Shown here: positions 38,615 through 38,690 of the stretch, piece after piece
Layout: every line of letters starts with the position of its first letter
How positions within the stretch are numbered: the stretch's first letter is position 1
From: Escherichia phage UE-S5a
Sequence record: PP175015.1
Strand: one strand, 5' to 3'
DNA: 64,000 nt
Translations under genes and position numbers: made by a program
Notes under the pieces: model-generated
Database searches by the model: none
The model's input: the letters and a program-made list of their open reading frames with translations, nothing else
Told to the model about the DNA's origin: nothing

Positions 38615-38690
38615 TGGTTACCCGGACAGGATTCGAACCTGCGTCCTAGTTGGTTTACTAGTGGGGCTTTACCACTAAGCCTACCGGGTA
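38615..38690 (-). tRNA. tRNA-like gene with non-canonical anticodon loop (6 or 8 nt)
   Basis: Perfect acceptor TACCCGG/CCGGGTA with encoded CCA, D-arm GGCT/AGCC, T-arm GCAGG-TTCGAAT-CCTGT; anticodon stem CTAGT/ACTAG encloses AAACCA. Confidence 0.45.

What the first reader, a model, noticed from the sequence alone, without database searches (positions are those of the whole stretch)
38615..38690. tRNA with perfect acceptor, D and T arms but a 6- or 8-nt anticodon loop
The minus-strand sequence folds with flawless acceptor (TACCCGG/CCGGGTA), D-arm, T-arm (TTCGAAT loop) and encoded CCA, yet the anticodon stem CTAGT/ACTAG encloses AAACCA. That gives either a 6-nt loop or, if the last pair is opened, an 8-nt loop of the kind seen in quadruplet-decoding frameshift suppressor tRNAs. 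A phage-encoded non-canonical tRNA could recode host or phage translation or act as a decoy.
Basis: seen in the sequence. Interest (0 to 1): 0.6.

Follow-up and report, generated by a model that had tools for sequence, protein, structure and literature searches.

The report
Phage tRNA look-alike without an anticodon
This N4-like coliphage encodes a conserved tRNA-shaped RNA whose anticodon arm is replaced by a displaced, variable hairpin, so it almost certainly cannot read codons and more likely acts as a tRNA mimic; related copies sit in the tRNA clusters of several unrelated phage groups.

Summary
Window 38615-38690 (minus strand) encodes a 76-nt cloverleaf with a perfect 7-bp acceptor stem, D arm, T arm, A73 and CCA, and a CUAGU/ACUAG stem closing a 6-nt loop AAACCA. 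ARAGORN calls it tRNA-??? and Rfam matches tRNA only by skipping the anticodon arm. The window is Escherichia phage UE-M3 (Gamaleyavirus), whose paper already lists the gene as tRNA-Undet-NNN without analysis.

The quadruplet-decoder reading is not supported. The hairpin is displaced (3-nt linker, 3-nt variable region), the loop has no U33, and loop bases vary between close relatives.

It does not look like a simple decaying pseudogene either. The same scaffold occurs in four other phage lineages, always 1-9 nt from a canonical tRNA. Acceptor and T stems covary (9 pairs changed on both sides versus 1.7 expected). The hairpin is a different perfect stem each time, with loops of 3, 4, 6 or 9 nt.

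It is one unit of an array of seven tRNA-like elements (38531-39525) beside a tmRNA-like tag module.

Best reading: a processed, non-decoding tRNA mimic. Its target is unknown; an anti-defence decoy is my leading guess. Expression and function are untested.

The parts
38615..38690 (-). The tRNA-like gene (unit E6), 73 nt to the discriminator plus an encoded CCA.
   Evidence: ARAGORN tRNA-???. Rfam RF00005 40.7 bits. MFE cloverleaf. Family model R1 97.1 bits.
38684..38690 (-). Acceptor stem 5' strand, UACCCGG. It starts with U1, which pairs with A72.
   Evidence: Sequence. Acceptor helix 99% paired, with 5 of 7 pairs changed on both sides across the family. U1:A72 is invariant in 15 of 15 members.
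38665..38681 (-). D arm: 5-bp stem GGCUU/AAGCC and 7-nt loop AGUGGUA carrying G18 G19. The extra G after A9 pairs with C26.
   Evidence: U8-A15 (UAGGCUUA) is invariant across all lineages.
38662..38664 (-). 3-nt linker CCA between the D stem and the hairpin. A canonical tRNA has 1 nt here.
   Evidence: A 3-nt linker (CCA, GCC, UCC or ACC) is present in every family member.
38646..38661 (-). Hairpin replacing the anticodon arm: stem CUAGU/ACUAG and 6-nt loop AAACCA.
   Evidence: Loop position 5 varies C/U/G, and the closing pair is U:A or U.G in relatives.
38643..38645 (-). 3-nt connector GAC, a shortened variable region.
38626..38642 (-). T arm: GCAGG UUCGAAU CCUGU.
   Evidence: T helix 100% paired, with 2 pairs changed on both sides.
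38615..38625 (-). Acceptor 3' strand CCGGGUA, discriminator A73 and encoded CCA.
   Evidence: The CCA is replaced by UCA in SP5M, KKP3715 and E20, and by CUCC in ST4.
38531..38609 (-). Adjacent canonical tRNA-Ile(AAU) (unit E7), 5-9 nt downstream of E6. The two are probably made as one dimeric precursor.
   Evidence: ARAGORN. Rfam 63 bits. Conserved in 139 phage records.
38260..38291 (-). Intrinsic-terminator-like hairpin (13-bp stem followed by a T run) that probably ends the RNA-island transcript.
   Evidence: Conserved in relatives.
39315..39380 (-). Sibling unit E2, a 63-nt mini tRNA-like element: acceptor UCCGGUG/CGCCGGA, one central hairpin, T arm, A73 and CCA.
   Evidence: Conserved in Bas96, Bp4, PhAPEC5, ShWW44 and Klebsiella phage K57alpha1.2. 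The central hairpin is remodelled with compensating changes in IME11.
39189..39312 (-). Sibling unit E3, a 121-nt tRNA-like RNA with a perfect acceptor stem UAUCAGU/ACUGAUA, a T arm, A73 and CCA.
   Evidence: The acceptor is UACCAGU/ACUGGUA in other Gamaleyaviruses, a compensatory change.
39448..39525 (-). Sibling unit E1, annotated 'tRNA-Cys(ACA)' in the UE-M3 record: perfect T arm, imperfect acceptor stem, no CCA.
   Evidence: A homolog with compensatory T-stem and acceptor changes is present in the T4-like Klebsiella phage UTI-K1.

Best explanation
The element is a functional but non-decoding tRNA mimic.

How it is probably made (inferred, not shown): it is co-transcribed with the adjacent tRNA-Ile as part of a roughly 1.7-kb RNA island on the minus strand that ends at the terminator at 38291-38260. 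It has a complete acceptor stem, T arm, D arm and elbow, plus A73-CCA. The host enzymes that mature the neighbouring tRNA (RNase P, 3' exonucleases, CCA-adding enzyme) should therefore also release it as a stable RNA of about 76 nt.

Why it should not decode (shown from sequence): the anticodon arm is replaced by a displaced hairpin with a 6-nt loop lacking U33, so it should not pair with a codon on the ribosome.

Where selection acts (shown by comparison): on the top half of the molecule, on the invariant UAGGCUUA D-arm segment, and on the mere presence of a hairpin.

What follows (inference): its partner reads tRNA shape, the acceptor end or the elbow, not an anticodon.

My preferred specific role (weakest step, about 0.3 on its own): a decoy or competitor that occupies a tRNA-directed host factor, such as an anti-phage tRNA nuclease or a tRNA-end-modifying toxin. 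This fits its place in a variable accessory region next to a Tad2-like anti-defence gene.
For: Architecture:
- Acceptor, D and T arms are intact, and the hairpin is displaced with a 6-nt loop.

Family:
- The same scaffold occurs in Gamaleyavirus, in SonariX/SABI and IMG/VR contigs, in Klebsiella phage 05F01 (Stephanstirmvirinae), and in Vequintavirinae phages A7_1 and NDO71.
- Each lineage has a 3-nt linker and a perfect but unrelated hairpin: 5 bp/6 nt, 5 bp/9 nt, 7 bp/3 nt and 7 bp/4 nt.
- A covariance model separates members (at least 76 bits) from ordinary tRNAs (at most 49 bits).

Selection on structure:
- 9 of 22 pairs changed on both sides, versus 1.7 in shuffles (0 of 500 shuffles reached 9).
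- Acceptor 99% and T stem 100% paired. Sliding the partners by one column drops pairing to about 53%.
- Within Gamaleyavirus, G6:C67 becomes A6:U67 with a G.U intermediate. All other stem substitutions also preserve pairing.

Layout:
- The element is always 1-9 nt from a canonical tRNA: Ile here, Gln in SonariX, Tyr in A7_1, Thr in NDO71 and Arg in L060. This implies co-processing.

Context:
- Sibling units E1, E2 and E3 in the same array also keep a tRNA-like top half without a canonical anticodon arm.
- A terminator lies downstream.
- A Tad2-like ORF lies next to the island.
- There is no homolog in 5,426 E. coli genomes.
Against: - No expression, processing or aminoacylation data exist for this RNA.
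- Only about 19 of at least 139 related phage records carry it, so it is dispensable.
- The encoded CCA is lost in four relatives.
- Among close relatives the flanking non-coding DNA is as conserved as the element or more so. Short-range conservation therefore proves nothing.
- The covariation shuffle control does not correct for phylogeny. The effective number of independent lineages is small (about 5; effective sequence number 1.9).
- The decoy role rests only on architecture and genomic neighbourhood. No target is identified.
- One borderline relative (L060, 66 bits) has a 7-nt anticodon-like loop, so the scaffold itself may be compatible with decoding.
Confidence: 0.5

Rival explanations
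1. Decaying tRNA pseudogene. An old phage tRNA lost its anticodon loop and is drifting. It survives only because the region is young and recombines as a block.
For: - Patchy presence among Gamaleyaviruses.
- Loss of the encoded CCA in some copies, and variable loop bases.
- The element lies among clearly degenerate tRNA-like fragments (E1, E4 and E5 have imperfect acceptor stems).
- The flanks are equally conserved among close relatives.
- L060 shows a relative with a 7-nt loop, which could represent the ancestral decoding state.
Against: - All four helices are intact in every lineage, even though lineages are only 73-80% identical.
- Stems change by compensatory substitutions.
- The hairpin is a perfect 5-7-bp stem in each of four deeply diverged lineages, with unrelated sequences. 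Neutral decay would break helices, not rebuild them.
- The non-canonical linker and the extra G are shared derived features, so the odd architecture is old.
Confidence: 0.22
2. RNA-processing or stability module. The tRNA-like fold serves only as an RNase P / 3'-trimming handle that helps mature or protect the neighbouring tRNA or the upstream RNAs. Bacteriophage T4 dimeric tRNA precursors work this way.
For: - The element is always 1-9 nt from a canonical tRNA.
- Only the parts recognised by processing enzymes are conserved.
- The array lies at the end of a transcription unit, before a terminator.
Against: - Many Gamaleyaviruses keep tRNA-Ile without this unit: PhAPEC5, PhAPEC7, Bp4 and K57alpha1.2.
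- The partner tRNA differs in every lineage.
- An invariant 8-nt D-arm sequence and an invariant U1:A72 pair are more constraint than a processing handle needs.
Confidence: 0.15
3. Non-canonical decoder. The RNA is charged and reads two or four bases (6-nt or 8-nt loop), causing programmed frameshifting, or acts as a suppressor.
For: - Acceptor, D and T arms and the CCA are intact.
- Engineered or mutant tRNAs with 6-, 8- or 9-nt loops can shift frame (established knowledge; reviewed in PMC5009743, PMC9094753).
- With a slightly relaxed threshold, ARAGORN reads the 9-nt-loop relative in phage 05F01 as 'tRNA-Stop(tta)'.
- L060 is called tRNA-Val(AAC).
Against: - No U33 equivalent in either reading.
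- The hairpin is displaced by 3 nt on the 5' side and 2 nt on the 3' side relative to a canonical anticodon stem of the same total length.
- The loop base that would be part of a 4-base anticodon varies C/U/G among phages with otherwise near-identical genomes.
- Loop size and sequence are not conserved across the family.
- No dependent frameshift site is known. The 3,456-aa vRNAP ORF and the neighbouring ORFs are intact.
Confidence: 0.06

Closest known systems
Canonical phage-encoded elongator tRNAs (Rfam RF00005), including the adjacent tRNA-Ile(AAU)
   Same: 7-bp acceptor stem, D loop with GG, T loop UUCGAAU, discriminator plus CCA, location in a phage tRNA cluster, and probably the same maturation pathway.
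   Different: The anticodon stem is not in the canonical register, the loop is 6 nt and lacks U33, no isotype can be assigned, and there is an extra G after position 9 and a 3-nt D/anticodon linker.
+1 frameshift-suppressor tRNAs with 8-nt anticodon loops (sufD, sufB2 and engineered quadruplet decoders; PMC9094753 and bioRxiv 10.1101/2020.12.31.424971)
   Same: A tRNA body with an anticodon loop of non-standard length.
   Different: Those tRNAs keep the canonical stem position, U33 and a defined 4-base anticodon. Here the 8-nt loop exists only if a Watson-Crick pair is opened. It has A at the U33 position, and its bases vary between close relatives.
Bacteriophage T4 stable RNAs in the tRNA gene cluster (species 1 and 2 / RNA C and D; from my own knowledge, not checked here)
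   Same: Non-tRNA stable RNAs encoded within a phage tRNA cluster, with tRNA-like termini, matured by the tRNA-processing machinery, and of unknown function.
   Different: No sequence relationship was tested. The T4 RNAs are longer. Units E2 and E3 of this array resemble them more than E6 does.
Phage tRNAs that counter tRNA-targeting defences (T5 tRNA-Lys versus PARIS, PMC11464382; T5 tRNA-Tyr versus retron Eco7, PMC11555353; anticodon-loop variants, PMC10264068)
   Same: Phage-encoded tRNA-shaped RNAs in accessory regions whose benefit is linked to host immunity.
   Different: Those are functional decoding tRNAs that replace cleaved host tRNAs. This element has no usable anticodon, so it could act only as a decoy or competitor, and that has not been shown.
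tRNA-like domains of non-tRNA RNAs (tmRNA TLD, bacterial YrlA/Y RNA, viral tRNA-like RNAs such as MHV68 TMERs; from my own knowledge)
   Same: The tRNA top half and elbow are retained while the anticodon arm is replaced. They are recognised by RNase P and the CCA-adding enzyme without decoding.
   Different: E6 has no G3:U70 alanine identity and no tag ORF. No Rfam match other than tRNA reached E <= 10 over E6 itself. It has tRNA size and a complete D arm.

Membership tests
Canonical elongator tRNA | 7-bp acceptor stem, discriminator, and CCA either encoded or addable | tested here: met
   UACCCGG/CCGGGUA, A73 and CCA.
Canonical elongator tRNA | D arm with G18 G19, and T arm with the T54-Psi55-C56 motif | tested here: met
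   AGUGGUA D loop and UUCGAAU T loop. The D stem has an extra G:C pair.
Canonical elongator tRNA | 5-bp anticodon stem at positions 27-31/39-43, with a single nucleotide (26) after the D stem | tested here: not met
   The stem is shifted by 3 nt on the 5' side and 2 nt on the 3' side, with a 3-nt linker and a 3-nt variable region. The Rfam alignment skips this arm as an 18-nt local gap.
Canonical elongator tRNA | 7-nt anticodon loop with U33 and a purine at 37, so that an isotype can be assigned | tested here: not met
   The loop is 6 nt, AAACCA. ARAGORN reports tRNA-??? (ac). tRNAscan-SE gave Undet-NNN according to PMC11927229.
Canonical elongator tRNA | Score above the Rfam RF00005 gathering threshold | tested here: met
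   40.7 bits against 29, reached from the acceptor, D and T arms alone.
+1 frameshift-suppressor / quadruplet-decoding tRNA | 8-nt loop on an otherwise canonical anticodon stem, with U33 and a defined 4-base anticodon | tested here: not met
   An 8-nt loop needs a U:A pair to be opened and reads UAAACCAA, with A at the U33 position. The stem is displaced.
+1 frameshift-suppressor / quadruplet-decoding tRNA | Anticodon conserved among relatives | tested here: not met
   The loop reads AAACCA, AAACUA or AAACGA in near-identical phages. The loop is 3, 4 or 9 nt in other lineages.
+1 frameshift-suppressor / quadruplet-decoding tRNA | Aminoacylation, and a dependent frameshift site in a phage or host gene | not testable with these tools
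   Needs charging assays, reporters or proteomics. No systematic search for frameshifted ORFs was made.
tRNA pseudogene | Helices degraded by uncompensated substitutions | tested here: not met
   92% of cells are paired overall, the acceptor 99% and the T stem 100%. 9 pairs show changes on both sides.
tRNA pseudogene | Orthologs elsewhere are ordinary tRNAs of a definable isotype | tested here: not met
   All 15 members scoring at least 76 bits are non-canonical. Only the borderline L060 (66 bits) has a 7-nt loop.
tRNA pseudogene | Not expressed or processed | not testable with these tools
   No transcriptome data were available.
tmRNA tRNA-like domain | G3:U70 alanine identity, and linkage to a tag reading frame | tested here: not met
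   E6 has C3:G70. The tag module lies about 930 nt upstream and belongs with unit E1. No tag module was found near E6-family members in A7_1 or 05F01.
Anti-defence phage tRNA (T5 tRNA-Lys / tRNA-Tyr type) | A functional tRNA of the same isotype as the host tRNA that the defence system cleaves | tested here: not met
   No anticodon or isotype can be assigned. Only a decoy mode would be possible.
Anti-defence phage tRNA (T5 tRNA-Lys / tRNA-Tyr type) | Rescues infection in hosts carrying a tRNA-targeting defence system | not testable with these tools
   Needs plating assays with deletion mutants.

The most novel reading that the evidence does not exclude
Enterobacterial phages of several unrelated families carry a class of 'anticodon-less' tRNA mimics. 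Each has a conserved acceptor/elbow scaffold (U1:A72, UAGGCUUA D arm, 3-nt linker) and a hypervariable hairpin cassette. They are made as tRNA-cluster passengers. They would function as RNA decoys or inhibitors of tRNA-directed host immunity or toxins, with the variable hairpin tuning specificity. The window's 1.7-kb island would then be an RNA-based counter-defence locus. It comprises seven tRNA-like units plus a tmRNA-like tag RNA that is conserved at the peptide level in more than 500 phage records.
Probability: 0.2. Interest if true: 0.8.

Novelty: new variant of a known kind. Interest (0 to 1): 0.5.

Why it matters
Phage tRNA genes are usually explained by codon supply or, more recently, by replacement of tRNAs destroyed by host defences. 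An RNA that keeps every tRNA feature except the anticodon fits neither explanation. It implies that tRNA shape, the acceptor end or the elbow is what the phage needs.

Such genes are routinely labelled 'tRNA-Undet' or 'tRNA-OTHER', given arbitrary isotypes (Thr in phage ST4), or left unannotated. The family has therefore gone unnoticed, although it spans Schitoviridae, Vequintavirinae, Stephanstirmvirinae and other phages. If it is a decoy, it would be an RNA-level anti-defence mechanism and a handle for finding the host factor it targets.

There is also a practical point for annotation. These elements should not be counted as decoding tRNAs in analyses of phage codon usage or tRNA repertoire.

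Tried and rejected
1. Conservation relative to flanks among 12 close Gamaleyaviruses. This was uninformative. The flanking non-coding blocks (for example 38698-38813) are nearly invariant, and the element is if anything more variable.

2. Search of 5,426 complete E. coli genomes for a host or prophage homolog, or for a canonical ancestor. No match.

3. Rfam at a permissive E-value over 37000-41000, looking for any non-tRNA family at E6. None over the element itself.

4. Testing whether the invariant D-arm word UAGGCUUA marks only non-canonical elements. It does not. The word also occurs in ordinary tRNAs in other registers (type II Ser/Leu, Thr(CGU), Trp). Only L060 was related.

5. A functional link between the tRNA mimic and the upstream tmRNA-like tag RNA, in the manner of a split tmRNA. 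There was no tag module within about 25 kb of the family member in A7_1 or 05F01, so this idea was dropped.

6. The MAFFT and covariance-model alignments place the Gamaleyavirus hairpin one column out of register with the other lineages. The hairpin helix therefore scores only 76% paired in the formal count. Per-lineage folding shows it is fully paired in each.

7. Literature searches for prior descriptions of anticodon-less tRNA mimics in phages, or of a tmRNA-like tag in these phages. These found only the genome paper listing 'tRNA-Undet-NNN'.

8. Pfam and PHROG scans of neighbouring ORFs for an RNA ligase, CCA-adding enzyme or nuclease partner. None was found; only the Tad2-like and N4 gp49/66-family domains were detected.

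Full report
**Identity of the window.** The region is 100% identical to Escherichia phage UE-M3 (PP301342.1; Schitoviridae, Enquatrovirinae, Gamaleyavirus). This is an N4-like coliphage with a 3,456-aa virion RNA polymerase ORF on the plus strand. The finding lies on the minus strand in a non-coding island. On that strand the island follows the SSB / Holliday-junction-resolvase genes and precedes the N4 gp48/gp49-like genes. The UE-M3 record annotates the locus as 'tRNA-OTHER'. [quoted passage not shown]

**Observation.**
- ARAGORN calls tRNA-??? with a 2-base 'anticodon'.
- Rfam's tRNA model scores 40.7 bits but treats the anticodon arm as an unaligned 18-nt gap. The adjacent tRNA-Ile(AAU) scores 63 bits.
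- RNAfold gives the cloverleaf as the minimum-free-energy structure.

The observation needs refining in one respect. The distance from the D stem to the T stem is the canonical 23 nt, but the hairpin is displaced within it. There are 3 unpaired nt before the stem (CCA) and 3 after it (GAC), and the loop is 6 nt. An extra G after A9 pairs with C26, giving a 5-bp D stem. The loop has no U in either the 6-nt reading (AAACCA) or at the position-33 equivalent of the 8-nt reading (UAAACCAA). This is therefore not a tRNA that lost one loop base.

**Relatives.** About 19 Gamaleyavirus records carry the element at 94-100% identity, out of at least 139 records that share the neighbouring tRNA-Ile region.

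Variation within this group:
- The acceptor pair G6:C67 becomes A6:U67 in IME11, UE-S5b and AN24P2, with G.U in phage 24-32N.
- G49.U65 alternates with G:C.
- The hairpin-closing U:A becomes U.G in two phages.
- Loop position 5 is C, U or G.
- The CCA is UCA or CUCC in four phages.

More distant homologs at 73-80% identity occur in Enterobacter phages SonariX and SABI and three IMG/VR contigs. They also occur in Klebsiella phage 05F01 (Stephanstirmvirinae) and in Vequintavirinae phages A7_1 and NDO71. ARAGORN calls none of them at default settings, and none is annotated as a tRNA in its record.

All of them share:
- U1:A72;
- U8-A15 = UAGGCUUA;
- G18 G19;
- a 5-bp D stem;
- a 3-nt linker;
- a 2-3-nt connector;
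- the T arm.

The hairpin differs in every lineage:

| Lineage | Hairpin stem | Loop |
|---|---|---|
| Gamaleyavirus (this window) | CUAGU/ACUAG | 6 nt |
| SonariX group, 05F01 | CCCAG/CUGGG or CCCAA/UUGGG | 9 nt (RACUUAAGA) |
| A7_1 | CACAACG/CGUUGUG | 3 nt |
| NDO71 | CGCAGCA/UGUUGCG | 4 nt |

**Statistics.** A covariance model built on this scaffold scores members at 76-97 bits and ordinary tRNAs at 49 bits or less. On the model-fitted alignment of 15 members:
- 9 of 22 pairs show changes on both sides, versus 1.7 +/- 1.2 in shuffles (0 of 500 shuffles reached 9).
- The acceptor helix is 99% paired and the T helix 100%.
- Sliding the partners by one column drops pairing to about 53%.

Two caveats apply. 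The shuffle control ignores phylogeny, and there are only about five independent lineages. The hairpin helix scores 76% because the Gamaleyavirus register is slid by one column, although each lineage is fully paired in its own register.

Conservation among close relatives gives no information, because the flanks are equally invariant or more so. No homolog exists in 5,426 complete E. coli genomes.

**Context.** The T-loop word GGTTCRANTCC occurs seven times on the minus strand between 38546 and 39469, against 1.8 expected in the whole window. The units are as follows:

| Unit | Window position (minus strand) | Character |
|---|---|---|
| E1 | 39525-39448 | 'tRNA-Cys-ACA'; imperfect acceptor stem, no CCA |
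| E2 | 39380-39315 | 63 nt plus CCA; one central hairpin in place of the D and anticodon arms |
| E3 | 39312-39189 | 121 nt plus CCA |
| E4, E5 | about 39125-38991 | degenerate |
| E6 | 38690-38615 | the finding |
| E7 | 38608-38535 | tRNA-Ile(AAU), the only canonical unit |

- E2 and E3 are conserved across many Gamaleyaviruses, including a Klebsiella phage. Each has a perfect acceptor stem plus ACCA. E3 has a compensatory acceptor change (UAUCAGU/ACUGAUA versus UACCAGU/ACUGGUA).
- E1 has a homolog at the end of the tRNA array of a T4-like Klebsiella phage. That homolog has compensatory T-stem and acceptor changes and a different 'anticodon' region.
- In every lineage the E6-family element lies 1-9 nt from a canonical tRNA. 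This is the layout of a dimeric precursor.
- A strong terminator-like hairpin follows the array at 38291-38260.
- The ORF at 37085-37612 has a Tad2-like (Thoeris anti-defence 2) domain, E = 3e-24.

**Interpretation.**

Shown:
- The element is real.
- It belongs to a phage-specific family whose acceptor stem, T arm and D-arm sequence are maintained.
- Its anticodon arm is a hairpin that is free to vary.

Inferred:
- It is co-transcribed and matured like a tRNA.
- It cannot decode.
- Its function depends on tRNA shape, the acceptor end or the elbow.

My preferred specific role is a decoy or competitor for a tRNA-directed host factor. This rests only on architecture, on the mosaic accessory character of the locus and on the neighbouring anti-defence-type gene. 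I give the decoy role about 0.3 on its own, and 0.5 to the broader statement 'functional, non-decoding tRNA mimic'.

Rivals:
- Neutral pseudogene (0.22). Helix maintenance across lineages argues against it. Patchy distribution, loss of the CCA and the surrounding degenerate fragments argue for it.
- Pure processing handle (0.15). Many phages keep tRNA-Ile without the element, which argues against it.
- Non-canonical decoder (0.06). The missing U33, the displaced stem and the unconserved loop argue against it. It is not fully excluded for the wider family, for two reasons. L060, a borderline relative at 66 bits, has a 7-nt loop UUAACAA and is called tRNA-Val(AAC). ARAGORN at 95% threshold reads the 05F01 element as tRNA-Stop(UUA).

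**Comparison with known systems.** The element works most like tRNA-like domains or passengers that use tRNA-processing enzymes without decoding. Examples are the T4 cluster stable RNAs, the tmRNA TLD, YrlA and viral tRNA-like RNAs. By the tests run here it is a member of none of them. It fails the defining anticodon-arm features of a canonical tRNA and of frameshift-suppressor tRNAs, and it fails the degradation criterion of a pseudogene. I found no prior description of the family in the paper library.

**Verdict.** The frameshift-suppressor interpretation is not supported. The element is a new variant of a known kind, a phage tRNA-like RNA. It is of moderate interest in itself and of more interest as part of a wider, unannotated class. 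Function remains to be shown experimentally.

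Noticed in passing
window 39448-39734 (minus); tag ORF 39651-39616: A tmRNA-like module. ARAGORN calls it only at a 90% threshold; Rfam tmRNA_permuted scores 32.7 bits against a gathering score of 47. Its tag reading frame is GCA AAC GAU GAU GUU GUU CUG AUG GCA GCC UAA UAA, which translates to ANDDVVLMAA**. The tag segment matches 538 phage records, including Pylasvirus, T1-like and P1-like phages. The last two Ala codons vary synonymously (GCAGCC, GCGGCG, GCUGCU), and the P1-like phage has ANDDLMMVAA. The tRNA-like domain is imperfect here (A1xC72 mismatch, G.U at 4:69 rather than 3:70, no CCA) and is not evident in the T1-like or P1-like copies. I found no prior description.
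   Followed up: partly
window 38991-39525 (minus): An array of further tRNA-like units (E1-E5) that ARAGORN and Rfam miss at default settings. E2 (39315-39380; 63 nt plus CCA) and E3 (39189-39312; 121 nt plus CCA) have perfect acceptor stems starting with U1:A72, then A73 and CCA. Both are conserved across Gamaleyaviruses with compensatory changes. E4 and E5 look degenerate.
   Followed up: partly
window 38531-38609 (minus): The only canonical tRNA is tRNA-Ile with anticodon AAU. An A at position 34 is unusual for bacteria. The 3' end reads ACCCA rather than ACCA. It is conserved in 139 phage records, with an invariant anticodon loop and a compensatory anticodon-stem change in KKP3715.
   Followed up: no
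window 37085-37612 (minus): A 175-aa ORF (N4 gp49-position homolog) with a Tad2-like Thoeris anti-defence domain (PF11195, E = 3e-24). It lies just beyond the RNA island.
   Followed up: no
window 38698-38813 (minus): A non-coding block of about 115 nt immediately upstream of the element, nearly invariant in 12 phages. It contains a hairpin GCCAG-UUAGAGU-CUGGC. Phages KKP3715, E20 and PW8 have 150-250-nt insertions exactly between this block and the element, so this junction is an insertion hot spot.
   Followed up: no
window 39195-39401 (minus); UE-M3 CDS UEM3_030: The annotated 68-aa 'hypothetical protein' CDS lies entirely over the conserved tRNA-like units E2 and E3, so it is probably a spurious gene call.
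   Followed up: no
L076 12679-12756 (Klebsiella phage 05F01); L015 1501-1578 (SonariX): The 9-nt-loop relatives (loop RACUUAAGA) can be read as a 7-nt loop ACUUAAG closed by a G.A or A.A mismatch. ARAGORN at a 95% threshold calls the 05F01 copy 'tRNA-Stop(tta)'. An ochre-suppressor-like reading is therefore not excluded for that subgroup.
   Followed up: partly
L034 4453-4528 (IMG/VR contig); L060 10585-10661: Two other odd phage tRNAs met on the way. L034 carries a Gln-like tRNA with an 8-nt loop UGUUGGUG. L060 carries a tRNA-Val(AAC)-like gene that has the family's D arm and 3-nt linker but a 7-nt loop.
   Followed up: partly
window 39385-39445 (minus); L017 about 665-725: The spacer GTCCAGACGATATCTGAGTGACT...GGTGGAATCCCTG between units E1 and E2 is shared with the tRNA array of an unrelated IMG/VR phage contig. 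tRNA-island modules, spacers included, are therefore exchanged between phage families.
   Followed up: no
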